Assembly: GCA_051362555.1 (NCBI GenBank)
Contig: CM120640.1
Coordinates: forward strand, 48,586,788 to 48,650,787
DNA: 64,000 nucleotides
DNA from: Lingula anatina
Taxonomy: Eukaryota; Animalia; Brachiopoda
Reading direction: 5' to 3'
Below are positions 22,701-58,748 of this stretch, one piece after another; position 1 is the stretch's first letter, and the number at the start of each line of letters is the position of its first letter. The notes beneath the pieces were generated by a model. The model saw only the letters and a program-made list of their open reading frames with translations. It was not told where the DNA came from and did no database searches. Both the position numbers and the translations under genes were made by a program.

Positions 22701-22764
<64 letters not shown>
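22701..22764. repeat. (TA)n microsatellite
   Basis: Direct reading. Confidence 0.95.
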
Positions 22765-22766
<2 letters not shown>

Positions 22767-25700
22767 TGTCCACCTTTCGTAATTGATACTCGTGTTTGGA
22801 CGTAAGTTATTGTACATACCAGTGTTATGGATAGGAAAAAATAAATCACGCTTAGCTTGGTAATTACCTGACCTGTTTGACTACCAGCACATGTAGTTAA
22901 AATATCTGTGTTGCATTTATACTCGAACTGACACACCCATAACAGCCCCATGGTGAAACCCTGCAGTGTTATTTCCTACGACTCTCAACTACTTGACTAT
23001 AAGTAGATGGATATGCATTTACAGTTGCAATCGAGTTGCCACTCCTGTAAGCTTCATAGTGAGACCGTGAAATGTTATTTCCTGCGATCAATTGTTATGC
23101 AGAGTTAAGTTTTCCAAAACATTTTTCTTTGATTTCTTGCATTTTTTTTTTTTTTTTTGGGGGGGGGGGGGCATTACTATATGTTTTGGAACATTCTGGC
23201 GCAGAGCAACAATGTTATGCCACACTGATATGCTCAGGTCAAACCCCATAAAACTGACTTCTTGTACATACAGTTTTCTGTGCAGGAATTGCCGAAATGT
23301 GAAGGCATTATCTGCAGAAACATGCTTTTCATAGTCATACATGTACGACGACCAGCCCAAAGTGAAAAAACCAATAAAACTTCACATATTACGCAATGCA
23401 GTGGTGCTACCGACAAGGCACCGGGTACATGAAGTGGGGTGATCTTAACAAACATACCTGACAGCACATCCTTCTATTCACATTCCTCATAAGAGATATA
23501 TGCTTTTAGAAACAATATGCATTTTCCTAGACAAGTCATTCAAACTGAAATATCCTATATTGAATGTCAACTCTGTAAAAAAAGGTGATATGGCTAGCAG
23601 AGCAAATCAGCTGCGTTGTTCTTTATCAACCATGAACATTTCTCAGTACTGACAACGTTCACTATTAATTGCATATAAAATATAAGAGCCTTCCTTTAAA
23701 CTGTCAGAGAATTCGGGCAAAAGTTCAAATACATTCCTTAAGGTGGTGAAAAGCAATGGTTTTTATAACTATGCCTCACAGTATTACGTTACTATGTAAT
23801 CCTCGGGCTACTGATGTTCCGGTCTTAATGTAATATCTTCACTTGGTGGAGCGAAGCACATCTATTCTGCCAACATTGGTTGAACGTGTGGAAACATTGG
23901 TTAACCATATGCCAACAGCAAGTTGGGCCATTGTTAATGTGTTATCCAATTATACGTGACAACGCAATTGATCTTAATGTTTTGTAGAAATCTAAATATC
24001 AATAATACATAGTGTATTTGATACAACTAGCTTGCTTTTCCAATCTCTCTTTTATGTATGGTTTGCATCAATTATTTGACGTATGGGGTAAATGTTTTGT
24101 GATTTTCTATTTTGCGATCTTCCTGTCATGCAATACTCTTTTACTCAGTGTGTGTTGAAGTAAGATTCACTGGGATATATATATATATATATATATTATT
24201 GTCTTGTCACTTCTTAGCTTGCACTGCGTCTGCCCATGTACATTTGAAATTTATTTCGCACACTTTCAGTCTTCTCTCCAAGTTTTTCTGACTAGCTTCT
24301 TGCAAATTATTTTTTGGAGGGGGCTACACCAACTGCTTATTTGAACCCGTCTTTCTGAAAGTAACCTGTCCCAGTGTCCGCCAAAGTTCAATATATTCTA
24401 TACAGGTATGCTGCATAATTTTTAACAGAGATATTTATAACATACATACATTAATATGCTATCAAAAAGCTATTTAAAAATACTTTATTACTCTGTCGTT
24501 TTACATGAAAATTTGCGTCATGTATCTGCACAGCATCTATCAGCTAAGCCAAGTGGTAAATTACATTCTCACAGTACTCTTTGAGAGTGTATACAGTTCA
24601 ACTGTCAAGTCATACTGGAGATCACAGATAATACTTGATTGACTGCGTGCGATTCAGAAATTTCTTTTTCGATTGATTTCATAGGCGTAGAGAAATATGA
24701 AGCTAGTCTTGCAACTTGTTGTGGGCAATGCCAATGCATGAAATCTGATAGTGGTTAGCAATTCATAATGACATTTGCTACACTGAGCAGGAAGTGGATT
24801 TATGTAATTTCAAGGAATTTTGAGCAAAGCGCCGTTTCTGAGAAAGGCTAATGGGATACTCCTGGCACTTGACCAACTGAGTGGTCTATTTTGGTAGTGC
24901 ATGTTTGTAACCTTAGTAGATTTGCGTGTTTACTCCTGCGTTATACTCCACTGAACATGATTGATTACACTAATATGCCATCATTCATACATGTAACTTC
25001 AGAATCTTGGAGAGCTGAGCTGTGAAACTTTCAAAAAGGTTAAGGGGGTTGCAAACATTGAAAAGATCTGCAGTTAATTAAACGCTGCACTTTGCAATGT
25101 GATAATGAAATTATTTTGAAGTGACCGCTGATAAAATACCATTATAACACCCTCAGGATGCATGTACACAGGAAACAAGCCCTAGGAAAGCACGGATACA
25201 GAATCTGCTCCATCGATAAAGTCCAGAAATGACAAGCCAAAAACGATATCTTGGGCCATCTTTACATCCTCTCCATTTTATGCTTTCAGATAATTTTTAT
25301 TAGTCCCGTATAAATCACGTTGACGACTGAGATGAGTTTAATTTCCACCACTGACAAGCATGAGGTGATCGTTCGGGAACTGGAAGGTGAAGGACTAAAG
25401 GTCACTTTCTTCGTCGTTTGTCTCTTCTTTGTCTGTATATTATCTAATGATACTTTTCATGGTGCATTTCATTTTCTTACACCAGAATAGGTCCAATTCG
25501 TTACCCCCTGTTGTTGTTTTCCTCTGAACTGCGTTCTCTGAAAAGAGATTTTTAACAGTTCAAATGCTAGGTTTCTTATGTTCTAAGATGGATAAAGGGA
25601 AGTCCTTAAACAGCATGTTATGTGATTTCCTTCTTAAGATTCGAGTATATGTAGTCTGTCAGATGCGAATCGGTATGGGTATCATATCTAGAGGAAATCA

Positions 25701-28213
25701 ATTGTATTGAAGATTTATATCGTCGTAAAAATCGATTGTCTTTAAGTAAAAGTGATGTTTGCATGCCACCCGAGCTTTATAAATGATTTGGTCTTAATAT
25801 TAAAATCTAAATCCATTATCGATAAAAAATTATTAGAAGAGCATTTATTTTTATCATTAATATTCCAGTCTACACATTTTTATGGCGTTTTCACAAATAT
25901 TCTTTAACATCCTGTTTATCACTGTATCGTGATCAAAACTCAAAAATAAGCTATAGATATACGCTCTAGATAATGACAGCTTTCTTATTAACTTTCCCAA
26001 AGATGATTGCAGTTACAAACATCTTGCATCCTCACTCTGCGTAAAAAGTTTCGAGAAAGAGCCTTTATTGTATTATTTCAGAAGATGTAATAGGCCTATG
26101 GGATATTAATTAAGGTAATCTAAAAAGACAAAAGAAAGATATTAGCGAAAACACCATGTAAGAACCCTTTAGCCACGCACTTTTCTGATCTTATCGGAAC
26201 TAATTGACTCTATGAGCCCTTCTTCCCAGCAAATCTGCAATGAACACCAATCATGCTTTATTATTCATGGTAAATGAATGAAGGGAAAGTGAAGTTAGGC
26301 AGATAGGTATTTCGAATAGAACATTCTGTCTGATGAATGATAAAATAACATATCTTATGATACCGTCCTTTTCTCTGAATCGTCTGGAAAGTATTGCTAA
26401 AAATGGTGTTTAGATATTGTATAGGGGTGTCTGTGTTGTAGCATACCCAAGGGTCCCAGGTAATAAGACAAAGACCTTTAAACAGGATGTAAGAAATTGG
26501 TTAGCTTAAGTTCACTTTTTATTTGATTGGGTTGTTGAACTTAATTTTCCCACTTCGATTGTATGTAGACTGTTTTATCCCACTTTTGGTTAAAGGTTAA
26601 AGGATACCATTTAAGTCTTGTAACGACGTCTTTATGCATAGTTATGGCGTCAGTCGTTACCCATCAAAATAATCATTTGAGTCCAGTGTCTTTCCTTTTA
26701 TCCACAGTATTGGTCACTATCGATGTCTTTATAAGCAGTCAGCGTTCGAAAGATCAAAATTCACTTGACAATATAAATGCGACTGTTTTTGCAAATCGAC
26801 AAGAAAAATCGTATATTTTATACTTTGCCTGATATTCAAGAACTCCGTCTGTCATTTTCCAAGTCAAATTTCTAATCAAATCTAATTATCTACTCAAAAT
26901 TGCCCCAGAAAACGGATGTGTAATACAGAAATCAAAATTACTACTTACTTTTTCATCATAATCTACATGAACGTTGAATTTGTCCTGCCCTCTCTCCCCT
27001 TAAATGTCGAGGGATTATTAGAAATAGCAAGTACTTAGATGAAAGCGAATGTGACCTTTCTAAACAGAAAAATGAGATTGGCCTTGCATTTTAATATCAC
27101 CGCCCCCCCCCCCCCCCCCATAACGGCACGTTTCAGTTACACGCATACGCCATTAAAAAAAAGCTGAAGAAGAAAAAAGAAAGTGAAATTGTAAAACGTA
27201 AAACTGGAAGTATTTGTTGTGACAGATAATGATAACTGATGGCCATTGCATCTTGATGTCGCAGAGGGAGCAAGTAATAACAAGGCCAGATATGCAGCAC
27301 ATTGGGGGCACTGACTCCGAACACTGGTGGAGGTGACGTGATACATACAATGTAGTTTATGATATAGCAGTTCTGTGCACTTATATCCACAATAGCTGCT
27401 ATTTTGAACAATCTCACACTTGGCGTTAGACAGTTATTGAATTTGAATTCCGTCTAGGCAAGTCTAAGCAGGATATCAATTGCAATCTCGACCAGGTGAA
27501 ATCCCAGTTGTCATCTCGCTTCTAGGCGGCTTTCCAGTCTGCCATGGTTTTAATCTCGATCGTGGCATATATAATTATCATCAATTTAATATTTCGCTTT
27601 AGATTTACTTCAAGATTCTTGATTTTTAACATGTGACAGAAAAGAGTGAAGATAATGTAAATGAATGTATAATTTTGCATGTGTAAGGAAATGATTATTG
27701 ATCGACTTTTTTTTAAGAAAACAAAAAAAAAAAAAATAAAAATAAATAAATAAATAAATTAATAAAAAATATTGTGTGTTACTGAGGTCCAAAGTGTTAA
27801 TTTCTCTGGTGCCTCAACAATATCATTCTGATTGCTAGTGTGAATGTTTTAGAACTGTTTATCCAAACTTCACTCATTTGTATGTATATTCATTAATATA
27901 TCTTTTTATCTAAAAGTGAAAAAAATCAGTCTTTCCATAAATTCTACTCTAAAATGAAGTTCAATGTGAGAAAGCGATATTAAAGTTACTTTTCCTTCCT
28001 CCTGCTAAAAATAAATGAATAAATAAATTAATTAATGAAAATAAATAAATAAAATACTAGAATGAGAGTTAAAGTGTGGTCTTACTCGTTTTCTCTGAAA
28101 CAGACATATGTAATATATTTATAGTACGTTAATCTCTGAACTTTAATTTAAGGATACTGTACATAAATCTTATTCGTTATGCTTCAAATTAAATGTATTT
28201 CCTTTACTTTTAG

Positions 28214-28845
28214 TTACAGTTGTCGTGGCTTTTTTCGTGTGTTGGGCACCGTTTCACGTACAACGCCTGATGGCCATCTACATCGAGGAGGACGATTGGA
28301 CCCCGCAACTGCTAGAAATAGACACGTACACATGGTACATTTCCGGAGTCTTGTACTACGGCAGCTCAACTATCAACCCGATCGTCTACAGTATTATGTC
28401 GCTCAAGTTCAGGCAGGCATTCCGTAATACCTTTATGCGGCCATGTTGCACTAGAAGTTCCAGTTCAAGAGGAAGAAAGAACCATTCTAAATACCAGACG
28501 TATAAGTTTAAGAGATCCGTGGATTCCCAATACTGCTCCTCAGTTGAAGGGTCTCATTCCCCAAAATTTAAAGCCGAAAGAAACGGTAATTTGGAAGGAA
28601 CAAGAAATCCAAGGCAAAACATCGAAATGAAGACAAAGAGTGGTGATAATAATCAAGTTGAATTAGTCTGCCAAGCGCAACTTGGGACCACTAAACCTTA
28701 TTCTAGTGAACCCTCGGTGCCAGTAGGACCAGGGGAACCGCTTAAGCCTAAATACGACTGTGTTGTAGAAATCCAGGCCAACCCCCTGTCTGACCCCCAA
28801 TATACGACATCCCTGAGGGATCTACACAGCATAAGGAGCGTTTAG
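28214..28845 (+). CDS. PRXamide-family GPCR, coding exon 2 (TM6, TM7, C-tail); spliced protein 496 aa
   Basis: Acceptor tttacttttag|tt restores KMLFTVVVAFFVCWAPFHVQRL; SGVLYYGSSTINPIVYSIMSLKFRQAF (NPxxY); stop tag at 28843-28845. Intron 17960-28213. Confidence 0.93.
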
Positions 28846-30169: not shown

Positions 30170-31835
30170 AGGCCCGGTCACACCTACAGAGCGCACGAGG
30201 TACGCATGCATTGCGCATGAAAATAAGCCAAATGCGCTGTTGTGCGTCCAACTTTTGACAGAATCTACCAGAAAAATTGCGAGTTAGTAGCGAATACATA
30301 GCGTTCTGTTGGCGTATTTTGCGTATAAAGGGCGCATGAAGATCGACTATAGAACGCACGCGTAAAAAAATCCAACGAATGCACAACTGGTTTTTGGCGC
30401 AAGGAACAAATGACTCGCGCATTCAGCACGCATTAAGCGAACAGATAGCGTTCCTCAGTCAGCAGCAATCACGTGACTCGTTCTCTATATATAAAAACTG
30501 CAGATTATGTAAAAAGCAACCAGTTAAGTTAATTTTTTGGATACACATTTATCGTTTCATTTATTGGGAAGGTGATATATATCAGCAAAATAATAAAGAG
30601 AAGCATTAACATGATATACACTGTTAATGTAGGCCTAATTGTTTTCAATTATGACCGAGCATTGTTTTTAGATAATTTATGTAAAAATCGAGCTATACAA
30701 AATACTTAAATTAAGACCATCTCAGAGGACAAAATTTAATCCTGATTGTAACTTTAATTACAGTAACATCACATGTGCGTTATGTATTTTGTACCAATGT
30801 GTATTATTAAATGTCTTGTTTAGTCTGTGCTTAAATGGTCAAAGGGAAGAAAGAGGTGGTCTAAATCATCCTGTCTTGCCATAGAACAGATCCGTCTTCA
30901 GAGTTGACCCAGTGTTTGATGATATTTCTCTGTTTTTTACCTTTATTGCTGGACGTGTTGCTGCCAGTGACGATGCGGGTGGCCGATGCGGGTGGCCATT
31001 TCTCCACTCACCAGCAGCAAACTCTTGACCCAGGTTCTCGGAAACGTCAAGCTGCTGGCTCTGCAGTGAATGCCGGGTCCTCATAAGGTTGTGGAGGATG
31101 ATGCTTGCTATTATAATCTTTTTGATGGCCTTGGGCTGCCGCTGAAGGAAGAACTTGTAAACGGTTCGCCAGAATGCTCCTGGTGTCACAGGCTTGGTGG
31201 AGTGCAAGTTCCATGACGCTATGAGAATGTTGGAGAACTGAAGTTTTGTATTCTAATCGCAGCCTGTCAAGATCTTCCATATTATGAAGCGGTTATTCAG
31301 CATAAGTGGATAAGTGATGCTGATACAGAGGACCCATTTATGTATACACCGTGGATACACGCTAGGCTCAGGACACGCATGCTTAGGACACGCTAGGAAC
31401 ACGACAGAGGTGCGCTACAATAACGCTGGCTGCGTTAAAGAGACGTTCAACGTTCGTTCTGGTTCGTTAGAGATTCGTTTATAGTCGCTGCATGTTCGCT
31501 ACACATGCGGTGGAAGCATGCTGTGTGCTCGCTACGCCAAAGGCAACGAATTTGAAACACCTAGCGTTTATGCAACGTCTGATTAACGCTGATCCAACGG
31601 CCTCCGCGAATGCCGAGCGACCTTTTGACGTCTAAGTTCATGCGTCGGGCTGAACGCACATTTTTGTGCATGCACAAAAACTCAGACGCACAAGAGCGAA
31701 TGAAAACGAATGCATAACTGTCACCCGGCGCGTTTGACGAATGCAGACGCATAACAGCGCACTGGCCAAAATTGCCAAATTTTTTAGCGCGTCGGCCGTG
31801 CGCCGACCCTGCGTCGTGTAGGTGTGACCGGGGTA
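30170..31835 (-). mobile_element. Non-autonomous PIF/Harbinger DNA transposon with transposase remnant
   Basis: 16-bp perfect TIR core cccggtcacacctaca (30173-30188) / tgtaggtgtgaccggg (31817-31832); TTA on both flanks (30167-69, 31836-38). Frameshifted minus-strand ..SILANRLQVL../..QPKAIKKIIIASIILHNLMRTR.. resembles the HARBI1/DDE_Tnp_4 C-terminus. Confidence 0.85.
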
Positions 31836-38054: not shown

Positions 38055-40012
38055 TTATTATGTACAGACACAGATGTGTCTGTACATATTGCCATCACCT
38101 GCGTCTGTCGTCGCCGTCGCCGATCATGTCGCCGTCGCCGTCGCCGTGCACTTTCAGCGTTAACACCATAAGTGGAAGACAGTTTTACTTTTTGGCTTTA
38201 TATTTACAGAGCTGACTAATATTCATAAAACGCAGGTCAAGTTCGAAAATCAGCATGATCGGGCCATTATTGTAGAATTTATGCTGTTTTTTCACTTTTT
38301 AGCATATATGCAACACTGTTAACACATTTCAAGGAAAACCGATAGGCCTGTTGTCATGAAACTCACAGGAGTAATCAGTCTTACTAAAACGCAGATCAAG
38401 TTCGAAAATCGGCATGATCGGGCCACTATTTTAGTAGTTATGCTGTTTTTTCACTTTTCAGCATATATGCAACATTGTTAACACATTTCAAGGAAAACCG
38501 ATAGACCTGTTGTCATGAAACTCACAGGAGTAATCAATCTTACTAAAACGCAGGTCAAGTTCGAAAATCGGCATGATCGGGCCACCATTTTACTAGTTAT
38601 GCTGTTTTTTACACTTCAGCATATATGCAACACTGTAAACACAATATAAGAAAAACAGATGGGCCAATTGTCATGAAAGTCACAGGAGTGGTCAATTTTA
38701 CTAAAATGCAGGTTGAGTTCGTAAATCAGCATAATCGTGCCATTATTTTAGAAGGTATGCTGTTTTTTCACATTTCCTCAGATTCAATTTTTAGGCATGT
38801 CAACAGTCTCATTATTAAACTAATAAGATATGTGAAAGTGTTTGTTTGACATTTCCTGCATCTTTACAACATTGTTAGTTGATTTTGTAAAAATGATGGT
38901 AAACATGTTATCGTGTATTGTGTAATAAAGTTTCAAAAATGGAAATAAACTCATATCATTGCAATTTGTCAGATTCAATCATTCACTATGTTCAGAATCT
39001 CAGAATGGAAGAAATTGGACATTTAACACTGCTCTGCTGATACTTTTCTCATCTCATCAATTTTCTTAGTTGATCATGTAAAAATGGCAGTAAACTGTTA
39101 ATTTTGTTTTATGTTAAAAATTGTTAAAAATGGGGAAAAAACATTTCAGAACAGTGCTGTCTTGTTTACATTTTGGCATTTTCAAGTTGTGACTTTGAAG
39201 TTCCATGGGCCTGAAGACCTTTGCTAGTCACATTTTCTGAATATCCATGATACTAATATTTTATTATTAAAAATTGATGGTCATTATGCTGTTAAACATT
39301 ATGTAACATTGCATCAAAATTTGAAAAAAAACTATTTTGGGCACTGCTCCCATGATTACCTTTTAAGAAAAACCATGTCACTTACTGTTCTCAAACTTAC
39401 AGGAAAGAAACATGGGACTAAAATACAGCTTCAGTAGGCAATGCAATCTGCCAGATAAACAGCTTTTTTTTTTGTGAAAATTTAATTTTTCACATATTGG
39501 CATTTTCAAGGTGTGACTTTGAAGTTCCACAGGCTTGAAGACCCAGGCTAGTCACATTTTCTGAAAATCCATGATACATATATTTTGTTATTAAAAATTG
39601 ATTGTCATTATGCTGTTAACCATTATGTAATATTGCATCAGAATAGAAGAAAACATAATTTTGGGTGCTGCTGCCTTGATGACCATTATGGGAAAACCAT
39701 GTTACTTATGATTGCCAAACTTTCAAAAAAGAAATACAGGACTGAAATGCAGCCTGAGTTGGAAAAGCAGTCTAAATGACTTCTTTTTCTGGAAGTTTTA
39801 CATTTTCAAAGTGTGAACTTGAACTCCCATGGGCCTGAAGCTTTATGCTTGTTTCACATTTTACTTACATTGGTATTACCTGTTGAGCATAATTAAAATT
39901 TGATGTTGAATTTGCAGTTTAACATAATGTACTTTTGCATCAGAATTGACAGTAGCCTATTTTGTTATTTCCTGCTTTTTGTCTGTACATTTGACAGCTT
40001 TGCTGCCTTGTT
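38055..40012 (+). mobile_element. Non-autonomous Helentron/HINE-type element with internal tandem arrays
   Basis: 5' subTIR plus hairpin atgtacagacaca-ga-tgtgtctgtacat; (GTCGCC)n microsatellite; ~160-bp repeats (caggtcaagttcgaaaatc at ~38232, 38392, 38551, 38709); ~310-325-bp repeats (~39172, 39497, 39800); 3' subTIR gtctgtacat (39981) plus short hairpin cagctttgctg and a T-run. Confidence 0.75.
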
Positions 40013-40189
40013 TTTACTTGCGCTTGCACTGCGTTTGCAGCACGCCGTATGCACTACATATGGACATTGTTTTTGTTGTGCAAAGGTATGCACAAAAATG
40101 CCGTTAAAATCCTGAAGCATAAATTCTCAAGCAGTGAAGGCTGAAAGCATTTTTTAACGAACCATGAACTATATATGTATGTATGTATA

Positions 40190-40225
40190 TATATATATAA
40201 GGATTTCGCGTTCCAGATCATTTTC
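40190..40225 (+). promoter_or_regulatory. Candidate TATA box and initiator for the cysteine-rich peptide gene
   Basis: tatataa ending at ~40200, then Inr-like tcattt at ~40218; ATG at 40237 in aaccATG context. Confidence 0.4.
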
Positions 40226-40236
40226 AATAATCAACC

Positions 40237-40312
40237 ATGACAAGAATAGTCCTCGTTGTTCTGGTTTTCATATTGGCATCTGCGATGTCGTCAGGTTCTC
40301 CAGCGGGAAGAG
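40237..40312 (+). CDS. Secreted cysteine-rich prepropeptide, exon 1 (signal peptide)
   Basis: MTRIVLVVLVFILASAMSSGSPAGR-g|gtaaaa: basic N-region, hydrophobic core, small-residue cleavage region; phase-1 donor. Confidence 0.8.
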
Positions 40313-40571
40313 GTAAAAATTTGATTTACTACATTCACTACAACTTATGACATGAACTCCCCCTCTTGGCTATATATTTTGTGATGTGATCTTAAACGAA
40401 CCGTAAATGATTTTATTTTCGATCTTCAAACTTTTCTTTTTGCATTATGTTACTTTCATTTTAAAGAGCATACATGTAACTGTGATCAGTTTATCACTAT
40501 CGGGGCAATTCCTAGCGACCCCAAGATGCAGGTGAATGATTATTTTACAGAGATGGAAGTAATTTTTCTAG

Positions 40572-40732
40572 CATTTGATCTTCCAGCAAAGCGATTTTTC
40601 CAATGCCAAAAGGATCCCAACTGTGGCGTGCATGTGGGGGTACAGGCCGGAGCCAATGGTCAAGTGCTGACCTGTTGGTGTGCTGACCCCGCCAAAACGA
40701 TGAAATGCTGTGTTGAGGTTAACTGGGGGTAA
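40572..40732 (+). CDS. Secreted cysteine-rich prepropeptide, exon 2 (propeptide end, KR site, 6-Cys mature peptide); 78 aa in total
   Basis: Acceptor tttttctag|ca is phase-compatible: AFDLPAKR-FFQCQKDPNCGVHVGVQAGANGQVLTCWCADPAKTMKCCVEVNWG*; AATAAA at 40804. Confidence 0.8.
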
Positions 40733-40803
40733 ATGCCCAAGACTCCAGTCTTTATACCTTACAGTACCCTTGTATTTGTGCAATAGACTGATTATAATGC
40801 AGT

Positions 40804-40809
40804 AATAAA
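40804..40809 (+). terminator. Polyadenylation signal of the peptide gene
   Basis: AATAAA 71 nt after the stop, followed by T-rich sequence. Confidence 0.6.
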
Positions 40810-42091
40810 TAACTTTATTGTTTAAATTAAAAGAGCAAAGATGTGTGTGTTGTGTATGAAAGCATGGAAATGCTTATTCTCACCTACCATCTCCGGCCAT
40901 GAACATACGAACGTGCGAGTCCTGCACAGCATCGATCATTTTCCCATTAATCTCCTTTTTTTTTTTGCAACCATTTTTCTCAAAGCAGAGTCATGCACTT
41001 GTTTATCTCAAAATATGCAGAAATCTGTCATAAATAATTAATTTACCTGGGACTTAATAAATATCAAACAAGAATACATTGAGTCAATTTTCATTTAAAC
41101 TTAAAACTTTTATGAAGGACAATGTCTGGTTTTTGCCCTATTGCTCTTCAACCGTTACATGTACTTCTGCTTACCTTAAAATAACATTTCAAAAAAGGAA
41201 ATTATACTGTTATGAAGGTCCAAGAAAATAACCCTTCACAAAAAAATTTACTTCTTTCATATTAAGAAAATCTTAGTTAGAATTTGTGACAAAGTTTCCC
41301 TAGGATTATTCACAAGTACATGATAAAACATGAAAATGCAAAGAACAAGAAAAAAGAGCACAAAGTATAATAAGTAGTCATACCTACTAAAACAGCAACT
41401 GTGGCATCATTATGAAAAAAGATTTTCAGAAAGCACCAACTGTCAAAGGAAAAAATTGAAACATTGTATCTTAGATAAATAAAACCATTTTAAGCATCCA
41501 TTATTTAACAATAAATAAAGTTATAGTCTTAAAATGAATAAACACTCGTTACTTATCAATGTAAATCGACCACATTCTCTACCAAATGTAGTAGTACAGT
41601 GTACATTGTATGTTCTCTAGAAAAACTGTTTGCAAACTATAACTCGGTTGAAAACCACATGACTTGTGGGTATTTGATACTTAAGTCCACTTAAATATCT
41701 TAATTTTAACCACGTCTTCAGTTTGCTGACATAAACCTAGTCCAAGGGGAAAATCTTCAACTGCTTCTTGCACCTGAAGTCACTAAACAAAGAATCACAC
41801 CCGAGTTGTCATGTTGAAATGGATGTTTTCTTGATTGTTATCAATTTATTATTGTTTGACATGCCAACTCTGCCGTTGGTATGGATATATCATCATTAGA
41901 AAACCACATGAGAGCCAGCACCATGAAATTTCTTGTGTGGTTGGACTTCAGGGAAAGCACTACATTCTTTGCTAAGAATGATACTTGATGGGTGCCTTCA
42001 TGACTTGTTGTTTTGAGAAGTCTGTTAATGATGCTAACCTTTCATAAACATAAATGTATCACAGAGAAGTTATCAAGACACACAATAATCC

Positions 42092-42273
42092 CTAAGAACC
42101 AGATTTCTTCTTCTCTTCTGGTGTAAACACATTAAAGCTCTCTCCACAGCCACAAACTCCAATTATGTTTGGGTTATTAAAAATAAATTCACTGCTTAGT
42201 TTGTCCTCTTTGAAGTCCATCTCTGTGCCAAGAAGAGTTAATTGAGCTTTTTTGTCCATTAGAACTGTAACAC
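42092..42273 (-). CDS. ISCA1: Iron-sulfur cluster assembly 1 homolog, mitochondrial, exon 4
   Basis: GVTVLMDKKAQLTLLGTEMDFKEDKLSSEFIFNNPNIIGVCGCGESFNV with the HesB/IscA CGCGESF motif; acceptor tatttag|gt. Confidence 0.97.
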
Positions 42274-42497
42274 CTAAATACAAGAGGTAACATATTTTTC
42301 AATAAGCTTCCCATCATTCCAGAACCTTGCAGTGCAGAATACTGAAAAGTAAATCTGCATTGTGGTGACTTTTTAAAAATTCACAACATACCAATATTTA
42401 GTAATTTATGTTCACTAAGATAACATATACTGCTTCATTAAAAAAATGTAACCCAGAGTCAATTGACCTGAAAATCTGACACTGTATGGTAACTCAC

Positions 42498-42603
42498 CAT
42501 CTTGTTCGACAACCTCATCAAATTTTCCCCTTTCCTTTACATAGTCTAGTGTGTATGACAGACCATTGCACCCTCGCTGTTTCACACCAATTTTCAGACC
42601 AAT
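42498..42603 (-). CDS. ISCA1: ISCA1 exon 3
   Basis: IGLKIGVKQRGCNGLSYTLDYVKERGKFDEVVEQD-g|gtgag; contains RGCNGLSY with the first conserved Cys. Confidence 0.97.
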
Positions 42604-43281
42604 CTGAATAGAAAGATCATCATTATAAATATTGCAAATATCAAATGAATGTCAAAGAAATTAGCAGGATCAATTTCATGGGTATCTTGCTCTGGATTTT
42701 TCTCGATTCATTTTCACATTATAAATTTAAAAGTAATCCTTCTACTCAAACAATTTCTACTGGCACATAAATTGGCTCATTAGTAAAGTGACTCAGTAAA
42801 AAATGCTATCATACTGGTCAGTGCTGGACTGAATAAAGACAGAATAAATAACAATCAATAAACATTGAAATGCCAATATATAATCCCATAAAACAGACTA
42901 GAAAAACTGAAAAGAGTGATCCCACAATTAATTTTTTATCTTTAGCCAGTGCTTTCATTCAGGCTAACTCTTAAGACAGAAACATGGCCTTTTATATCAC
43001 AATGCAGATGACCCAATTCTGTGTTGCTGTATATGACTTCAAAATATTAAAATGTTAAACCATGACCATATTTACAAGTTATAATTGTATAAATAGAGCA
43101 CAACATTGATGATAGAATTAACACACAGAAGACTACATGTACTGGGTATGGATACAGTTTTCTTTAGTCAAAATTAGTAATCCTTTTACATTCAGTCACT
43201 TTTACATTCTCTAACATAAGCTCTTCCACTGTCTACTTCTAGGAACCAGTTTACATTTTTTTTATTTCCACTTATACATAC

Positions 43282-43335
43282 CGTTCCTGGCTTCTGAGAG
43301 ACCAAGCTCTGTATTCGCTGAACTGCTGCTGGAGT
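43282..43335 (-). CDS. ISCA1: ISCA1 exon 2
   Basis: ttttcag|TPAAVQRIQSLVSQKPGT|gtatgt, phase 0/0. Confidence 0.93.
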
Positions 43336-43570
43336 CTGAAAAGACATCCACAGTATCACCTCAGTTTACTGTAAAATATTATATACAGTGCTTTACCATA
43401 ATCTTGTGAGTACAATTTAGTATTTAATAGTTGTATTTCTTCAATGATAATATTACATGGGAACTAGTAGTTTCTAAGAGCAATTATCCATATTTCAAAT
43501 ATGCAGCTGAAGATTTTGTTTTGCAAGCTCTTAAGGTCTATTTTATTTCTTGTTAGTAACATAGGGTACT

Positions 43571-43572
<2 letters not shown>

Positions 43573-43616
<44 letters not shown>
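43573..43616. repeat. (CA)n microsatellite
   Basis: Direct reading. Confidence 0.95.
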
Positions 43617-43618
<2 letters not shown>

Positions 43619-43620
43619 AT

Positions 43621-43962
43621 GGGGTAGTGCTAACACTCGCCGATTTAGCCAAATGCTAAAACAGACTTAAATTGGCTAAACAAAAAGGGCTTGATTTGAC
43701 TAATTTTAGTCTAATTCAGGGGCGGATTGAGGCCGTATTCTGGGTCTTCAGGAAGACGGTCAAGTATTCAAGTATACACTGACTAGTATCTATATTTTTC
43801 TGTCGGAAGACGGTCAAAAATGGAGAATGGACCAACAAAGATAATTTGGAAGACTGTCAGAAAATAGCTCTGGATCCGCCCCTGTAATTAAAGTCATTTG
43901 GATAACAAATTAACATAAATGAGGTGATTTGGCTAAGCGTAAAAAATTGCTAGCGCTACCCC
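43621..43962. mobile_element. MITE with a second MITE (43717-43884) nested inside, in ISCA1 intron 1
   Basis: Outer TIRs ggggtagtgctaaca / tgctagcgctacccc; inner TIRs caggggcggat / atccgcccctg flanked by a taatt direct repeat. Confidence 0.75.

Positions 43963-43964
<2 letters not shown>

Positions 43965-44048
<84 letters not shown>
43965..44048. repeat. (TA)n microsatellite
   Basis: Direct reading. Confidence 0.95.
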
Positions 44049-44050
<2 letters not shown>

Positions 44051-44511
44051 CGGCAATATATTTCTCATTAAAAATGCTCAACTGATTTGACCCAATTTCC
44101 GTTATGTCATATACAGTTTTGGTCAAAAGGTAGTTTAAATTACTCAAGATTTATTAATAGATTAAGGTGACAGTTGACCGTGGCTGACCTTGAAACATGC
44201 TGCTATTTTGCCCTTAATATTTTACTGACATACTAGTACTTCCGACGGAATACACTAACGCTAAGGTCTTGGTATCATGATTTAAACCGATTCAGTCTTA
44301 TACTGATCACCAAAGAACAACTTTTAAAGATTTGACAGTTAACTATCAAGTAATATTATCATTTTTATATCCTCAGTTTCATGATTGTTGTGAACCAGAT
44401 TCCAGTGGCAGTGGGCCAATGACACATATTCTGCGCACGGGCACCAACGATAGCGGACAAGAAGACAAACCAGATTTATTTTATTAATCTAAGATACAAA
44501 AACCAATTTAC

Positions 44512-44595
44512 CAAAGTTAATGCTGCTCTTGGTGGCACGGGTTTTCTCCTTGTGACAGCTCGCACCGTAGCCCCAGCCGCTTTGCTGGCAGACAT
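44512..44595 (-). CDS. ISCA1: ISCA1 exon 1 (mitochondrial targeting region); spliced protein 141 aa
   Basis: MSASKAAGATVRAVTRRKPVPPRAALTL|gtaaat matches the metazoan ISCA1 N-terminus (ATVRAV..RK..P.RAALTL). Confidence 0.95.
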
Positions 44596-48400: not shown

Positions 48401-48906
48401 CACCTTTCTATTTTGAGGTGAGAGCAATCCTTAGGTGGTAAAGATGACCCTAGCACATTGTCCTATACCAAAAGGTATGCTTTTTTTCTGTCAAAAATAG
48501 TTATAAACTCATATCATTGCAGTTGGTCAGATTCAATCATTTACTATGTTCAGAATCTCGGAATGGAGCAAACTGGACATTTAAAGTTGTTCTGTTGATA
48601 TTTTTCCCATCTCAACAATTTTCTTAGTTGATCATATATAAGTGACAGTAAAGTGATATAGGTCAATGTGCTGGGGTCATCTTTATCACTTAAGGATTGT
48701 CACCCTTTGCCCAAACTCCTTATTTACTGCCTTACATTCTTTTGGGTAATAGATGAACCTTCAGTGTTCAGTGACTAAATTGATTAACATTTATACATGT
48801 CATCTCATGGGTGACGTCATAATAGTGATTTTGGTCAACTTTGCCAATTTTCGGGACAAAATTAAGCCCCATATTGATAGCGATCTCACCTCAAAATAGA
48901 AAGGTG
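48401..48906. mobile_element. Non-autonomous DNA element with nested inverted repeats
   Basis: Outer IR cacctttctattttgaggtgaga (48401-48423 / 48884-48906); inner IR ~48425-48467 / ~48657-48700; related end sequence at ~59968-60018. Confidence 0.65.
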
Positions 48907-51598: not shown

Positions 51599-53021
51599 CT
51601 GGAAGATAAGTACAGAAAAATAACATATACATACATGGATTATTTGCCACTTTGAGAATATTTAGGGGGTAAAGATTTCTTCTTCTCTTAGTATTTCTCT
51701 GATAATAGTCAAAATGCCTGCTAAATATACAGCTCCACATAAACCACAAAAATCTGTAAACACTACATTTCAAGGGACCTGGTGTTTTAATTAAAATTAT
51801 CTAAAGTAAATGTAAGGCTTCCACAATGAATCATGATTTAGACAGAATTCATTATTTGTATGCAGTACATGAAACGGATGCTTGAGCAACTGCCATAAGT
51901 GTTTTGTTGATACAGCACATGGAATTTTATGTCCTCCCATTTTGTTTTAAAAGAAAATGTCAAGACTTCAAAATGTTGATGGAAGATGCATATTTTAATG
52001 AGAAATATGTCAGCTCTATAATCTTTTATGAAAGTAATGCAATGTTGTAGAATGTGGTAGTGGATATATGCAAAACACCAGCATGCCAATTTTCAGACAT
52101 AAAAACCTTCAAAATGTTGCTTCATTTTGATATAATATGCTGAATACATAAAATACTATGAAAAAACCCTCAATAAAAAATTCTATAATGGAAATACATA
52201 TGGAAAAGATTCACCCAATGCGTATCATGCAAATGTTGTATTTACAAGAGAACCTGCATACTCCTGAATCATACTATTATATGTGCACCTCTGCACTACA
52301 TGCTGGTTTTTATTATAAAAGTTGAAAAGGTCCTTTCCCAATATTTGCAAAGATAACTGGAATAACTTCACATTATTGTCAATACATAAAGGTAAGCAAG
52401 ACATTTAAAAATCAGCTCTGTGTGCCACAAAGGTTGTCATTCATATCCTAAGTATACACAGGAGGACATGTGACACTGCACCATGACAAATTTCTATCAG
52501 GGCATTTTTGTGTGAACATATTACAAGCTGCTCATTGGCACAGTTGCTGACATGCTTCATGCAGGGAATAGTCAATGCTTCACTGGTAGCATGTGTACAA
52601 GAACCTGTGGTACTGAGCATGCTAACTCATACCTGTGTGGATGTTACATAGGTTCACTACACTGATTCCATCTGCTTCTGTAAACCAGGGCATGTTTCAC
52701 TGTTTAAATTTGGTTACATACTGAATTTATAAACATTACTTAGAGAAATTCTTTTTGATAATTCTAGGAAACTTTGGAAAAATGGGCTTGGACTATAACA
52801 TTTCCAAATTTATTTTTCATCAAATTGTCTTTACAACCCATCCCCAATTTTGATCAAGAAGCTGCAATTCACACAGATGTCTTTTATATATACCTAAAAA
52901 TTCATAAAATGTTCCTTTCCTTGCTGTAATTTATACCCACCCTTAATACACAGAGACTGTTTTCTCCCTTTTTAATTCAGGTTTTTATTTAACTTCCTGT
53001 TTGCAAAATTTCTAGACTTAC

Positions 53022-53703
53022 TTGAGCTCTTGCTCTCTCTGCTGCATCTCCTCAAGTTCTTGATGAATCTTACTTTCCGTCAAGTTCTGAGATTTCCTGA
53101 AAGTAAACTTTTCTTGTGTGTTTGTGGAATTGCCTTTCGGCTTTGTCCTTAAAGTGACTCCATTATGCCCATCTGAATGATCTGGGGTCTTCTGAGGCAC
53201 CCCTTTTTCTATGATCACAACCTCCCTCTCAGCTGGTAGAGGAAGCTTGGGTGAAGTATGTGTCTTTCGCAATTCCTCTTCACGCTCTCTTGCGATCCTA
53301 ATGTCCCTCTCAATAGGGGTTTCAGGCTGGGGGACATACTTGTAGGAGTTTTGAGGTTCAACATCTTGAAACGGCTTCACCTTGGGAGAGCGTGGGGAAG
53401 TCACAGTATCATTCTGAACACTAGAAGCATGGAGGGCAGAGTAGCTCGTGTTTGTCCCAGTGCTATGGGCTGAATCAGTGGAGTTGGCACTGAAAGAATA
53501 ACCTTCCCTTTTGAATGGTTTCACCTCTTTCTGCCAAGTCCCACTAGGCTGTTGTGGCACGTCCACAGACTTGGTGTCAGCCTCATCTTGGTCACCACAG
53601 TCACTGGCTTTACCTTGTGAACCAGACATTTGGCGTCGAAGACGCTGTATTTCTTCCTCTCTTTCACGTTGCTCTCGTAATTCCCGAGCAATTCGACTCT
53701 CCC
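53022..53703 (-). CDS. MISP/AKAP2-like protein, internal exon
   Basis: ttttag|GESRIARELREQREREEEI...ETPIERDIRIAREREEELRK...ESKIHQELEEMQQREQEL-aa|gtaagt; phase 1 in, phase 2 out. Confidence 0.88.
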
Positions 53704-54038
53704 CTAAAAAGTTAAACAATGTAAGTAAACAACTAGAATGAATGTTGAAAATGGTGTAAAATGGAATTCTCAAAGTGCTTTAAATTTTTTTCAAAAACAT
53801 TTATGTTCAAAAGAAGATGATCCAATTTACATTATCACAATCAATATTTGATACATGTATGCCATTAGTTTAACTTGAATGTTACAGTAATAACTCAATA
53901 TTTTCAATGGGCAAAAATTATCAAACTTCCAGATACATACTTTTATAATCACAAAAATTCTATTAAATTTTATATATGGCATTTGTGATGCTTTTACTGC
54001 ATAAAAAAGAACTATAGTGTAGACTGCTTTTTAATTTT

Positions 54039-54394
54039 GGTTCCGTTCACATGGAAAATCTATTTTCTAAAAATCTATTTTCGGTATCTTGTGATCACGG
54101 TCTGTGTCCTGAATACCCCACGGCGTAATTACTGGCAGCGCGAGCGAGTTACTTCCAAAGCTTTAATTAATTCTCGGCTGCGCTTGGAGGAGATTCTGAT
54201 ACCTTGACGCATGTGAGTAGTATCTCTAAGCTGTGAAGTTCATCAGTTTAGTTGTGACGACTCATGCATACAGACGCGTAATATGGCTAGTGGTAGTGCC
54301 AAACAAGTTGGAGTAACTTCCTACTGCGCATGCAAGATACCAAAAATAGATTTTTAGATTTTTTAGAAAATAGATTTTCCATGTGAATGGAGCC
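54039..54394. mobile_element. Harbinger-like MITE in an intron
   Basis: TIRs ggttccgttcacatggaaaatctattttctaaaaa...ggtatcttg / caagatacc...ttttagaaaatagattttccatgtgaatggagcc. Confidence 0.8.
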
Positions 54395-54607
54395 TTTGTT
54401 GCTACCATTCAACGAGAATATTTTAATTTTAAGAAATTATGACTTGAAAAATTCACAATTTTCCACACAATTTTTAACAGAAAGATCGAGTAATTTACCG
54501 TACCAACTCTCAAAATCTTTAAAATGATTATAATTATTGGTACGTTTAAGGTAGACACGCATATAAATGTACAAAAATAAAACACAATCAGGGTCAAAAC
54601 TATCTAC

Positions 54608-54950
54608 CCGGATGAGCAAAATGTTTTCCCTCGGCCATTGTTTCACCACTTGGAGCGCTGGATGTCTTCACTGCTGGTTTTGTAGTTGATGCCACTGGAG
54701 AACTAATATGGAGCTTTAAAGATCCACCTGAGGCGGCCTGACTCTTTTCCTTGTGTGGTGCTGAAGAAGTTGGAGGAGATGTTTTCTTTTTTGACTCTTC
54801 TATTTTCTGCTGGTAAGCTCTCTCACGCTCACGAGCAATGATCTCTTCACGCTCTCTCTGAAGACGGATTTCTCTTTCAACTATGCTTTCATGCGCTGAC
54901 AGCCTTTCTTCCTCCTTTTCTTGTCTTTCAAATTCACTCTGTTGCTGCTC
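54608..54950 (-). CDS. MISP/AKAP2-like protein, internal exon (absent from the ORF track)
   Basis: tttcag|EQQQSEFERQEKEEERLSAHESIVEREIRLQREREEIIARERE...KHFAHP-g|gtagat; open for 343 nt, phase 0 in, phase 1 out. Confidence 0.88.
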
Positions 54951-55548
54951 CTGAAATCACAAAGCATTTCATGTGAAGGATAATCATACTGTACTTTTTG
55001 AGTATGTAATATCCACAATACCTTAGAACTGAGTGTGAGTTACTTTGCCAGTGTATAGGTGTGGCACTACCTGGTCATATGTTACCAGAGCAACACACAG
55101 CTTGCTGCCTACAGTTGCTGCTAAGGGATGTCTCGTCACAGATGGAGAGGTATATCACACTGAAAAATTCTCAAAATTTTTTTGCAGTTCCTAAATTTGA
55201 ATTTTTATGCTACAACTTTCAAAACTATTTGTCTACACAAAGTATACTACTTATTGTAGCTTTTTTAATAACATTTATATGGGCAGAATGTCTAATACTG
55301 CATAAGAAAGTTACATATAAAATATTATATAACACATTTATCAAATAAAATCTTTGTGACTGTGTACGTAAATTCAAATGCCCCCATTACTAATGATAAA
55401 ACCTTAAAGCAATAATAACTCTTCGTTTCGGCCAAAAAATGAATTTTCCTGGAGTAAACAACAATTTTCCCATACTTACCAATGGTTAATGAATCCATTT
55501 TTACATTCAAAGTCAGTCCCTGGTTTTTTTCTAAAAAGTTTGGTTTTT

Positions 55549-55576
55549 TGTTAAAATCTCTTAAGAGATTTTAACA
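55549..55576. repeat. Perfect 28-bp palindrome
   Basis: tgttaaaatctctt|aagagattttaaca. Confidence 0.9.
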
Positions 55577-57022
55577 GAGTATAGACATCAATGGAGGTCA
55601 CGTGGTCTAAAGACAAGTTCAAATATCAGAATAAAAGCTATAACTGCTGTTTTCTTGGTAAAACAGAATATATTATATTTCTATGAGTTATTCACAAGGT
55701 TTTTATTGTGAAATAAAGGTCTCATACGAAGAGTTATTATCCCTTTAAGGTACTAAAATAACTAAAAGTAAACCTAACATACTGGCTTGTACTCTTTTCT
55801 CTATCAATATCTGCAAATCTGTGCAAGAAACATTGATTTAACAATATCCATGTTAAATGTTCTTAGAAGCTGCAGCAGTATTACCTCATTAACTACCTGC
55901 AGCATCTAGTGACTTCAACCTCTCTCTGAAAGCAAACGGTAACTACATTTCCACCCCTCTTGGCTTCCCCAACCACATATAACTGTCACACAATCTCTCA
56001 CCTGACCAAATGTTAATGAAACTAGGTGGGCATCTGTTTACTGTTCTGCTGTTGCTATACACAATCTTTCATAAAAATTTATTGAATTGAGAATTTAAGT
56101 GCCCACTTATCAAATTTAATTTGACGCTGGTCTCATTTAGGTTTCCACAAAGCAAAATTGATTTTTGTATTATTTTGTATATTTGTATACCTTTTTTTTT
56201 TTACACCTAACACAATTTTTTTATATTTGTTAATTTTTCGTATCATGCGAATAAAACTAGCCATCAGCACCAAAGTAACAAGTTAAGTTAGCTGTCACCA
56301 TACATGTCATATGGAAAGCAGAGTGGATCATTATGAATGTTGCTCAATGTAGTCAACAGTCATCAATAAAATGCCAATGTATAACTGCTGGGCATACAAT
56401 GTACATACATTTATTGGTCTGTCATCAGTGTCTAGCAGCACAACTTATAGTGGGCACATGTTGTCCACTATGTGGTAGTATACATTCTTCTGTTACACTT
56501 TGCTGATAATTTTTGCTTATTTATTAAAATATTACTGACAAAATAGGCAAAAGACAACTAACTTTATTGTGATTACTTTAAGGGACAAAGTGTAACATTT
56601 TACGCACATGTTAATACTTTTTTCTAAAGTTATTCAGCTTTAACTCAATATGACCTTTTTCAATGAAGCTTTTTTTCAAATATTAAACTGTCGATTTAAT
56701 CTCTTTCTCATATGGGTATTCTATCAGTTTTATCAGTGAATTTTTTATAATTTGCACATTGGATTTCTATCACATAATGCAAATAATCAAAGCATGGTCA
56801 ACTTATTCAACATATATCAGGCAGTGCAGAAATGATATATTAGCTCTGAGCGCCTAAGATGGCAGTCGAGCTGTATCCTCCCCAGCGAGGTGAGACCGTC
56901 TACAGAGTGCACCAGTGCAAAAATGACCAGGCTTCCTTTGACTTGAATATTCATATTCATTTAAATAAATAAATTACATAATTGTATAACTTCAACCTTC
57001 GGGTTGCGATTTTCCAATAAAG

Positions 57023-57061
<39 letters not shown>
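57023..57061. repeat. (ATT)n microsatellite
   Basis: Direct reading. Confidence 0.95.
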
Positions 57062-57896
57062 AAAATACAATTGATCAATACCTTTTACTTTCATCAACAT
57101 GTAATTACAATCTGCTTGCAACTCCACCCTGTTGATACTAGTGCTTGGCTTATGGACATTTACTATTTCACCCATGTACATCTGGGTTTTAAATAGTAAC
57201 TATAATTCTTTTGAAGTGGCAGAATTCACCTGTCTCTCAAGTCCAATAAATTATGAAAACAAAAGTGGTCTAACAGGTTCTCCAGTTTCCACTGGGTTCA
57301 GTTTACATACCAGATCTTTTGCAGACAAAGCAGGCAATGCCAAACATTGTATCAGCAAGAAAACTAGTACGTTGTGCAATGTAAACATATAAGCAAATAA
57401 TTTTTACGTTTTAAATGAGTCTTAAAAATTATGAATAGTTTTAAATGAATGAACTAGTTTTATTACATGCCTCCATAGATACAAAAGCAACAATAAGAGG
57501 CTGTTCTCTTACTGAAAGGGATTACACAGGAACTGTCATGTGGATGAGAAAGTACAAACCTAAGACAATGCAGATAATAGCAAAATAATGATCACTTTTT
57601 AGGCAGTGAACCTAACCAAGGTATACAGAAATCCAGATATCATACATGATGGTTTAACAAAGATGGCAAATTTATTGTGAGAATTTTCAAGCCTGTAGTA
57701 GAGCAGCATAAATCATAAAGGAATGTAAGCTACAACCAGACTAATATCAATATCTCATTAATTAATTGCTTAAAAATATAGACTTCATTAACTATGATAG
57801 CAAATGGTAGATTTATAGATATACACAACATAATTATCATCATTAGTTCAATACCAATCGTGTATATACATATGCACACTCTCATAGCAATCTCAC

Positions 57897-58447: not shown

Positions 58448-58748
58448 CTGAATGATAAATAACAAATATTATATAATGTTTGTTTTTGATGAACTTTAAG
58501 GAAAAATGTAAAAAAATTACTTAATGAGGATTGCAAAATCTGGAAGCAAACTTATTTTCATATATTTTCAAAACTACTCCCCCATTTGAAGGTATTCTGC
58601 TTGATTGAAGTACCTAATGCTGTCGTGATTACAGGTATGCCTGGAAAAGATTTTTCAATCAGTAAAGTAGAACTAATTTTCTACCTTTGACATCAATAAT
58701 TAAATTGGTGCCCCAAGGGAATCTACTTCCCAAGATGGTAATTACATT

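What the first reader, a model, noticed from the sequence alone, without database searches (positions are those of the whole stretch)
40190..40830. Hidden two-exon gene for a secreted, probably amidated six-cysteine peptide with an unfamiliar framework
Seen in sequence: a compact and complete gene with TATA-like and Inr-like motifs, aaccATG, a signal-peptide exon (MTRIVLVVLVFILASAMSSGSPAGR), a 259-bp phase-1 GT-AG intron, then AFDLPA-KR-FFQCQKDPNCGVHVGVQAGANGQVLTCWCADPAKTMKCCVEVNW-G-stop and AATAAA. Established: signal peptide, short propeptide, dibasic convertase site and terminal Gly (PAM amidation donor) is the precursor layout of defensins, conopeptide-type toxins and neuropeptides. Inference: the mature product is a 44-aa, three-disulfide Trp-amide peptide with spacing C-x5-C-x16-C-x-C-x8-CC. 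The terminal CC recalls beta/big defensins, but the spacing does not match those I remember. It is near neutral rather than strongly cationic, so it may be an undescribed defence, toxin-like or signalling family. The ORF track shows only exon 2, so automated annotation could miss it.
Basis: partly seen in the sequence, partly recalled or inferred. Interest (0 to 1): 0.85.

Follow-up and report, generated by a model that had tools for sequence, protein, structure and literature searches.

The report
Orphan brachiopod six-cysteine secreted peptide gene
A lamp shell (Lingula) carries an intact small gene, missing from the protein databases searched, for a predicted secreted 44-residue peptide with six cysteines; it has no detectable relative, no reads in eight RNA samples, and a cysteine layout closer to one half of the seminal and egg-coat protein beta-microseminoprotein than to defensins, so it likely works by binding a partner protein.

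Summary
The anatomy is confirmed and beyond chance: 60 simulated windows gave 1 loose and 0 strict look-alikes (criteria set after seeing the gene). The neighbouring receptor is 100% identical to a Lingula anatina protein, so this is a brachiopod. No homologue or Pfam family was found. Three corrections. (1) The acceptor is unproven: five in-frame AGs exist; I favour 40586, which creates an R-A-K-R furin-type site (73 aa). The mature peptide is the same in all. (2) Expression is not shown: 0 reads on the gene in 8 of 8 RNA runs laid (85.6 million reads), while the adjacent ISCA1 gene is read and spliced. (3) The spacing fails beta-defensin patterns but follows the six intradomain cysteines of the beta-microseminoprotein N-terminal domain (9,20,1,6,0 against 5,16,1,8,0); one of two low-confidence models matched that domain weakly (Z 3.3, rank 15). 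Verdict: very likely a real, rarely expressed or dispensable orphan peptide gene; fold lead plausible, function untested.

The parts
40186..40223 (+). Predicted core promoter: TATA-like element (TATATAAG 40194-40201, further registers from 40186 in the TA run) and Inr-like TCATTT 40218-40223
   Evidence: Sequence; the pair occurs at only two places in the window. Consensus patterns recalled. Start site not shown.
40237..40312 (+). Coding exon 1: predicted signal peptide (hydrophobic core, mean hydropathy up to 4.0; likely cut after residue 16, 18 or 20) and start of the propeptide
   Evidence: cleavage site by the -3/-1 rule only, no SignalP available
40313..40586 (+). Predicted phase-1 GT-AG intron; 3' end uncertain (40586 favoured; 40571, 40550, 40466, 40559 also in frame). 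Holds a kB-like 11-mer at 40502-40512
   Evidence: kB-like site (pattern chosen after seeing the site; 2 in window, 3.2 expected)
40587..40594 (+). Dibasic KR (40589-40594); with the 40586 acceptor the junction reads R-A-K-R, a furin-type site
   Evidence: R-x-K/R-R consensus recalled
40595..40726 (+). Predicted mature peptide, 44 aa, Cys at 4, 10, 27, 29, 38, 39; net charge about +1 if amidated; 4777.1 Da monoisotopic with three disulfides and amide
40727..40732 (+). Terminal Gly codon (predicted amide donor) and TAA stop
40804..40819 (.). Back-to-back polyadenylation signals: AATAAA on + (40804-40809) and on - (40814-40819), the latter likely ending the long ISCA1 3' UTR
   Evidence: minus-strand reads fade at about 40870
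40820..44595 (-). Convergent neighbour ISCA1 (IscA/SufA-like iron-sulfur assembly gene); serves as the positive control for the RNA runs
   Evidence: Spliced reads at 42274-42497 and 42604-43281; translation; one exon matches SufA/IscA chains at E 1e-4

Best explanation
This is an intact two-exon Lingula gene, likely functional but switched on only in a restricted tissue, stage or challenge, whose product is predicted to be secreted, cut at KR, amidated and folded into a three-disulfide beta-sheet mini-domain like the N-terminal domain of beta-microseminoprotein, and which would act by binding a protein target in a surface, mucosal or reproductive secretion rather than by lysing membranes. Shown: open frame, signals, Cys order, absence of detectable homologues, silence in eight samples. 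Inferred from established precursor biology (recalled): signal peptidase, furin/PC cleavage, PAM amidation. Predicted: pairing C4-C39, C10-C29, C27-C38, carried over from chicken MSMB3. Guessed: the binding role. Tiered odds: real functional gene about 0.85; MSMB-N-like topology about 0.4; defence or secretion-protective binding role about 0.45.
For: Whole architecture rare under a null (1/0/0 in 60 windows); exon 2 GC 0.52 and GC3 0.51 against intron GC 0.33; even Cys count and Gly-stop. Chicken MSMB3 N-domain is residues 1-45 with C2-C43, C12-C35, C33-C42 and an interdomain C30 (PMC8167871 passages): loops 9,20,1,6,0 against 5,16,1,8,0 here, summed difference 10 against 19-29 for five beta-defensin-type patterns; the position of the interdomain Cys is Val, as expected if the second domain is absent. 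The 44-aa model has four strands carrying C1, no Cys, CxC and CC, as in that domain's sheet, and aligns to 6rwc_B residues 1-46 (Z 3.3, rmsd 2.2, 38 aligned, rank 15 of 48,161 chains). A C-terminally truncated family member exists (marsupial USM) and the family reaches molluscs and rotifers (PMC3268785). Net charge near +1 is unlike cationic membrane-lytic peptides. MSMBs are found in mucous and reproductive secretions and bind proteins such as CRISPs.
Against: 0 reads on exons 1-2 in 8 of 8 runs laid, about 85.6 million reads, under about 0.1 reads per kb per million pooled, while ISCA1 next door is read. No homologue to show conserved Cys. No Pfam match to any family, the microseminoprotein one included. 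Z 3.3 is inside the noise band and tied with unrelated beta-sheets; 599 chains reach Z 2; both models are single-sequence and low in confidence (pLDDT 65 and 71, pTM 0.35 and 0.41) and disagree: the other has a helix at 33-39. The Trp in the fourth strand of MSMB3 has no counterpart. MSMB/USM genes have four exons and I saw no dibasic-cleaved propeptide described for them. An earlier AI note reached the same unproven look-alike for an unrelated arthropod family, so this lead may be easy to fall into.
Confidence: 0.4

Rival explanations
1. An inducible antimicrobial peptide of trans-defensin type (beta-defensin-like, as panusins or non-canonical big defensins) with a strongly altered loop pattern, killing microbes directly.
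For: Same precursor plan as big defensins (prodomain, dibasic site, amidation) and a phase-1 intron at the 5' end of the Cys-rich region, as in beta- and big defensin genes (PMC7203481 passages); terminal CC on a strand; short beta-defensin-like forms arose several times in invertebrates; kB-like motifs at 39690 and 40502 (post hoc, no excess over chance in the window).
Against: Loops 2 and 3 are 16 and 1 against 3-6 and 7-11 in the five patterns compared; no N-terminal hydrophobic domain after KR; near-neutral charge; no Pfam hit; phase-1 introns after signal peptides are common (recalled); a constitutive blood-cell peptide would be expected to leave reads (inference).
Confidence: 0.2
2. A cysteine-rich neuropeptide or hormone made by few cells, like CCWamide/agatoxin-like peptides: cut at KR, Trp-amidated, acting on a receptor.
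For: [quoted passage not shown]
Against: CCWamides have eight Cys with CC third and fourth and a different intron phase; the peptide is not in that paper's supplement of about 1,300 proneuropeptides, which names anatina 423 times; neuropeptides are usually conserved across spiralians, this has no homologue.
Confidence: 0.15
3. A silent, recently dead or dispensable (present in some individuals only) gene copy with no current function in most animals.
For: 0 reads in 8 of 8 runs laid; no annotated product and no homologue; flanked upstream by repeats (159-bp and about 320-bp arrays); gene presence-absence variation is reported for mussels and basal chordates (PMC7653742, PMC12373286; search listing only).
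Against: No stop or frameshift, all signals intact, raised GC3; tissues of the runs are unknown, only 6-30% of each run was read, a 340-nt mRNA is under-sampled, and two runs (X7, X9) differ from the window by up to about 10 letters per read in the adjacent UTR.
Confidence: 0.17
4. A defensive toxin-like peptide in mucus, as described for ribbon worms.
For: Nemertean mucus holds unannotated Cys-rich peptides classed as framework XXV with anemone-neurotoxin-like predicted folds (PMC12846013 passages; sequences not visible).
Against: Lingula is a filter feeder with no described venom (recalled); no paralogue in the window; anemone-type beta-defensin-fold toxins carry CxC at the first two Cys (recalled), not the third and fourth.
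Confidence: 0.08

Closest known systems
Beta-microseminoprotein family, N-terminal Greek-key domain (chicken MSMB3, PDB 6RWC; human PSP94; truncated marsupial USM)
   Same: Secreted, small; six Cys in the order C..C..CxC..CC in a domain of 44-45 residues ending just after the CC strand; predicted four-strand sheet; weak structural alignment.
   Different: No C-terminal domain, no interdomain Cys, shorter first two loops, no conserved Trp, a KR-cleaved propeptide and amide signal, two exons instead of four, no sequence-level match.
Trans-defensins: beta-defensins, big defensins, panusins
   Same: Prepropeptide with dibasic site and amidation signal, six Cys ending in CC, phase-1 intron before the Cys-rich exon.
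   Different: Loop lengths 16 and 1 where defensins have 3-6 and 7-11; CxC in the middle; no hydrophobic N-terminal domain; not cationic; no HMM match.
CCWamide / agatoxin-like neuropeptides
   Same: Short precursor, single C-terminal Cys-rich peptide, amidated aromatic end, intron at the cleavage site.
   Different: Eight Cys with CC third and fourth; intron phase 2 against 1 here.
Fibronectin type I and von Willebrand C modules (recalled, not tested beyond Pfam)
   Same: Hairpin leading into CxC, then a loop of about eight residues to the next Cys.
   Different: These are modules of larger proteins with other Cys counts; no Pfam match.

Membership tests
Beta-microseminoprotein (MSMB/MSMP/USM) | Ten Cys in two domains (eight in truncated USM) | tested here: not met
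   Six Cys, stop five residues plus Gly after CC; family pattern
Beta-microseminoprotein (MSMB/MSMP/USM) | N-domain order of six intradomain Cys, C..C..CxC..CC, in about 45 residues | tested here: met
   5,16,1,8,0 against 9,20,1,6,0; random placement of six Cys gives such an order in 0.09% of trials, pattern set after the fact
Beta-microseminoprotein (MSMB/MSMP/USM) | Interdomain Cys three residues before CxC | tested here: not met
   Val24
Beta-microseminoprotein (MSMB/MSMP/USM) | Four-stranded Greek-key sheet with C1-C6, C2-C4, C3-C5 pairing | tested here: inconclusive
   One model has four fitting strands and Z 3.3 to 6rwc_B; the other model differs; disulfide pairs of the models could not be read
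Beta-microseminoprotein (MSMB/MSMP/USM) | Sequence match to the family profile | tested here: not met
   0 Pfam families for exon 2 and the mature peptide (filters drop most hits above E 0.1); 0 relevant PDB sequences
Beta-microseminoprotein (MSMB/MSMP/USM) | Three or four coding exons | tested here: not met
   Two predicted coding exons
Beta-defensin / big defensin (trans-defensins) | Cys spacing such as Cx4-7Cx3-4Cx9-10Cx5-6CC | tested here: not met
   Summed loop difference 19-29 for five published patterns
Beta-defensin / big defensin (trans-defensins) | Signal peptide, prodomain, dibasic site, amidation signal | tested here: met
   Sequence against PMC7203481; processing itself not shown
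Beta-defensin / big defensin (trans-defensins) | Phase-1 intron at the 5' end of the Cys-rich region | tested here: met
   All five acceptor options are phase 1; junction predicted only
Beta-defensin / big defensin (trans-defensins) | Hydrophobic N-terminal domain after the dibasic site (big defensins) | tested here: not met
   First Cys is residue 4 after KR
Beta-defensin / big defensin (trans-defensins) | Three-stranded fold with C1-C5, C2-C4, C3-C6 | tested here: inconclusive
   Low-confidence models only
Beta-defensin / big defensin (trans-defensins) | Antimicrobial activity | not testable with these tools
   Needs the peptide
CCWamide / agatoxin-like peptide | Eight Cys with CC third and fourth | tested here: not met
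CCWamide / agatoxin-like peptide | Amidated aromatic C-terminus | tested here: met
   Trp-Gly-stop; amidation inferred
CCWamide / agatoxin-like peptide | Phase-2 intron in the basic codon of the cleavage site | tested here: not met
   Phase 1 here

The most novel reading that the evidence does not exclude
The first stand-alone, convertase-released and amidated N-terminal microseminoprotein-type (or FnI/VWC-type) domain: a peptide scaffold with C1-C6, C2-C4, C3-C5 pairing that founds a brachiopod family of defence or reproductive ligands, and that shows this domain being turned into a defensin-like peptide independently of the defensins.
Probability: 0.25. Interest if true: 0.68.

Novelty: new variant of a known kind. 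Interest (0 to 1): 0.45.

Why it matters
Brachiopod effector peptides are almost undescribed in the literature reachable here, and this gene is missing from the protein sets searched. If the predicted fold holds, it is a compact three-disulfide scaffold that can be made by synthesis and a natural test of what the microseminoprotein N-domain does without its partner domain, a family whose function is still called unconfirmed. If not, it is one more orphan cysteine-rich peptide, a class that is abundant in invertebrate genomes (over 16,000 AMP-like candidates in 127 helminths, 72% of the prioritised set Cys-rich), which caps its interest.

Tried and rejected
Homologue searches with exon 2: none at 29-93 aa, 1 candidate and none scoring at 94-2000 aa; HMMER over 1.84 billion representatives gave 1 hit, P0121 (E 1.8e-4), rejected as a six-fold tandem-repeat ORF summing weak 20-bit matches with one Cys aligned. 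Metagenome and prokaryote contigs: 0 of 435 and 0 of 253 pattern matches confirmed; three viral loci are 9-11-residue matches picked by the pattern itself, rejected. PDB sequences: one E 1.8 hit, a prolyl endopeptidase, rejected. No paralogue in the window; no whole genome was held, so paralogues elsewhere are untested. Fold searches: Foldseek PDB nothing at E 0.001 for either model, viral library 3 rows at E 7-9, wide alignment nothing at Z 2 for model 1, second look at Foldseek rows best Z 3.2; no defensin, EGF or CART chain among the 50 rows shown, which excludes nothing. EGF-like (five of six positions fit by recalled spacing, Gly motif missing), CART-like and WAP-like readings were considered from memory and dropped for lack of any Pfam or fold support. 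ESM Atlas gave no answer. Literature: a nine-residue motif of the peptide is in 0 papers of the library and in none of the supplement files searched of PMC13425148, PMC8557429 and PMC4595640; searches for Lingula or brachiopod with antimicrobial peptide, defensin or cysteine-rich peptide showed no description of it (listings). The Lingula immune survey (PMID 29278680) is not held and the supplement of PMC12846013 could not be read; both may bear on novelty. kB-like motifs show no excess over chance in the window. No link to the upstream pyrokinin-type receptor is claimed: the peptide has no PRXamide end. No complex was predicted.

Full report
Setting. The window is animal DNA of about 36% GC. 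Its receptor gene at 17080-28845 is 100% identical over 286 of 286 residues to a protein that NCBI names pyrokinin-1 receptor of Lingula anatina; the next hit is 67%. The host is therefore a lingulid brachiopod. Downstream and convergent lies ISCA1; upstream are 159-bp and about 320-bp repeat arrays.

Observation. Exons are GC-rich (0.47, 0.52) against the intron and flanks (0.33-0.36). A scan for signal exon, compatible intron, dibasic site and six or eight Cys finds only this locus in the window and 1 hit in 60 simulated windows; adding a purine at -3 and a terminal Gly, or TATA and Inr, gives 0 in 60. The rules were written with the gene in view, so this shows rarity, not a formal p-value. 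Single features are not rare: 9 of 275 non-coding open segments carry six or more Cys and 28 of 275 reach exon 2's codon score.

Splice acceptor. Five AGs are in frame and open. Pyrimidine content just upstream is 0.69 for 40586 (CAG), 0.54 for 40571 (TAG) and 40550 (CAG), 0.38 for 40559 and 0.77 for 40466 (AAG); four neighbouring acceptors score 0.62-0.92, one of them read one base off. Only 40466 has a long AG-free run like three of the neighbours, but it is AAG and the added stretch scores as non-coding. The 40586 site turns the junction into R-A-K-R, a furin-type motif (recalled), and lies 24 nt from a GTAAT branch-like motif. My odds: 40586 0.45, 40571 0.2, 40550 0.2, 40466 0.12. The mature peptide is the same in every case.

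Expression. Nine RNA runs with the same species label were offered; eight were laid. None has a read between 40053 and 40841 (85,552,940 reads, 6-30% of each run). The same runs show the minus-strand ISCA1 transcript, with two CT..AC joints seen in 9-32 reads per run in the four runs, and its 3' UTR fading near 40870, close to a minus-strand AATAAA at 40814. The gene is thus below about 0.1 reads per kb per million pooled. Tissues are unknown, the mRNA is short, and X7 and X9 carry many differences from the window, so this shows that the gene is not broadly or constitutively expressed; it does not show that it is dead. Absence from the sampled individuals is also possible and was not testable.

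Relatives. No homologue was found by word-indexed search at two length ranges, by HMMER over 1.84 billion representatives, in Pfam or in PDB sequences. The same collection holds Lingula NCBI/UniRef proteins, so the product appears unannotated there. With no second sequence, conservation of the cysteines is untested and 'family' is premature.

Framework and fold. Against beta-defensin patterns printed in PMC9138766 (passages) loops 2 and 3 are far off. Two single-sequence AlphaFold2 models were made: 46 residues, pLDDT 70.8, with a helix at 33-39, and 44 residues, pLDDT 65.2, four strands. The second aligns weakly to many beta-sheets; row 15 of 48,161 chains is chicken beta-microseminoprotein MSMB3, residues 1-46, Z 3.3, rmsd 2.2 over 38 residues. 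Alone that is noise. It gains weight from a separate fact: PMC8167871 (passages) gives that domain as residues 1-45 with C2-C43, C12-C35, C33-C42, that is six Cys in the order C..C..CxC..CC with loops 9,20,1,6,0, plus C30 bonded to the second domain. The Lingula peptide has the same order, similar loops, Val at the C30 position, and ends where the domain ends. Carried over, the pairing would be C4-C39, C10-C29, C27-C38. PMC3268785 (passages and sections 6, 10) reports the family in molluscs and rotifers, rapid change outside the Cys, and a marsupial member that lost most of the second domain. Against homology: no sequence match, no Trp, different exon number, a propeptide and amide signal. I therefore treat it as working like, not as a member of, that family. 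A direct pairwise alignment with MSMB3 was not run.

Mechanism. Shown: an intact gene layout. Inferred from established precursor biology: entry to the secretory path, three disulfides, cleavage at KR, removal of Gly to give Trp-amide. Predicted: a beta-sheet mini-domain. Guessed: with net charge near +1 and 36% hydrophobic residues it is a poor membrane-lytic peptide and more likely binds a protein, such as a microbial or predator factor or a gamete-surface partner; MSMBs are described in mucous and reproductive secretions, binding CRISP proteins, with some antimicrobial activity (passages). A TATA plus Inr promoter suits a narrowly regulated gene (recalled), in line with the blank RNA. Rivals are a divergent trans-defensin (0.2), a silent or dispensable copy (0.17), a neuropeptide (0.15) and a mucus toxin (0.08).

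Papers seen. PMC7203481: passages and section 7. PMC8557429: passages, section 9, supplement searches. PMC4595640: passages, supplement search. PMC13425148: supplement search only. PMC12846013: passages; supplement unreadable. bioRxiv 2023.02.02.526830, PMC9138766, PMC9363672, PMC8167871: passages. PMC3268785: passages and two sections. PMC7653742, PMC12373286: listing only. PMID 29278680: not held.

Verdict. Observation confirmed; interpretation partly supported. Very likely a real but narrowly expressed or dispensable orphan peptide gene of a brachiopod, with a testable fold lead. New variant of a known kind; interest 0.45, up to 0.68 if the stand-alone microseminoprotein-type fold and a family are confirmed.

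Noticed in passing
window 17080-28845 (+): Pyrokinin-1 receptor-like GPCR, two coding exons about 10 kb apart; already annotated.
   Followed up: partly
window 40800-44595 (-): ISCA1 with three introns; reads pile up at 41545 and thin out to about 40870, suggesting two 3' ends, the longer one likely overlapping the peptide gene's 3' end at a back-to-back polyadenylation signal.
   Followed up: partly
window 53018-58520 (-): Multi-exon gene with repeated charged motifs and a weak AKAP2_C match (E 0.026, below the Pfam cut-off); MISP/AKAP2-like by recollection.
   Followed up: no
window 39162-40015: About 320-bp repeat array just upstream of the promoter; its 39900-40015 part is read at several hundred-fold depth from other loci in all four runs, so it is a widespread transcribed repeat. 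Holds a Dorsal-type motif at 39690.
   Followed up: partly
window 38129-38783: 159-bp tandem repeat, about 3.5 copies at 88% match.
   Followed up: no
window 48425-48699: 46-bp inverted repeat around 183 bp, overlapping a stretch 86% like 38933-39100: MITE-like element.
   Followed up: no
window 30866-31252 (-): 128-codon open frame in a GC-richer patch that looks like a Harbinger-type transposase remnant by eye; Pfam did not confirm it.
   Followed up: partly
window 41136-41390, runs X7 and X9: These two runs differ from the window at many fixed places and indels in the ISCA1 3' UTR, unlike X1-X6: a divergent population or cryptic species under the same label.
   Followed up: no
window 40385-40570 (+): The intron stays free of stops for 62 codons in exon 2's frame and holds a small GC-rich island at 40500-40532; codon score is non-coding-like. 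Chance, a longer exon 2, or a former coding stretch.
   Followed up: partly
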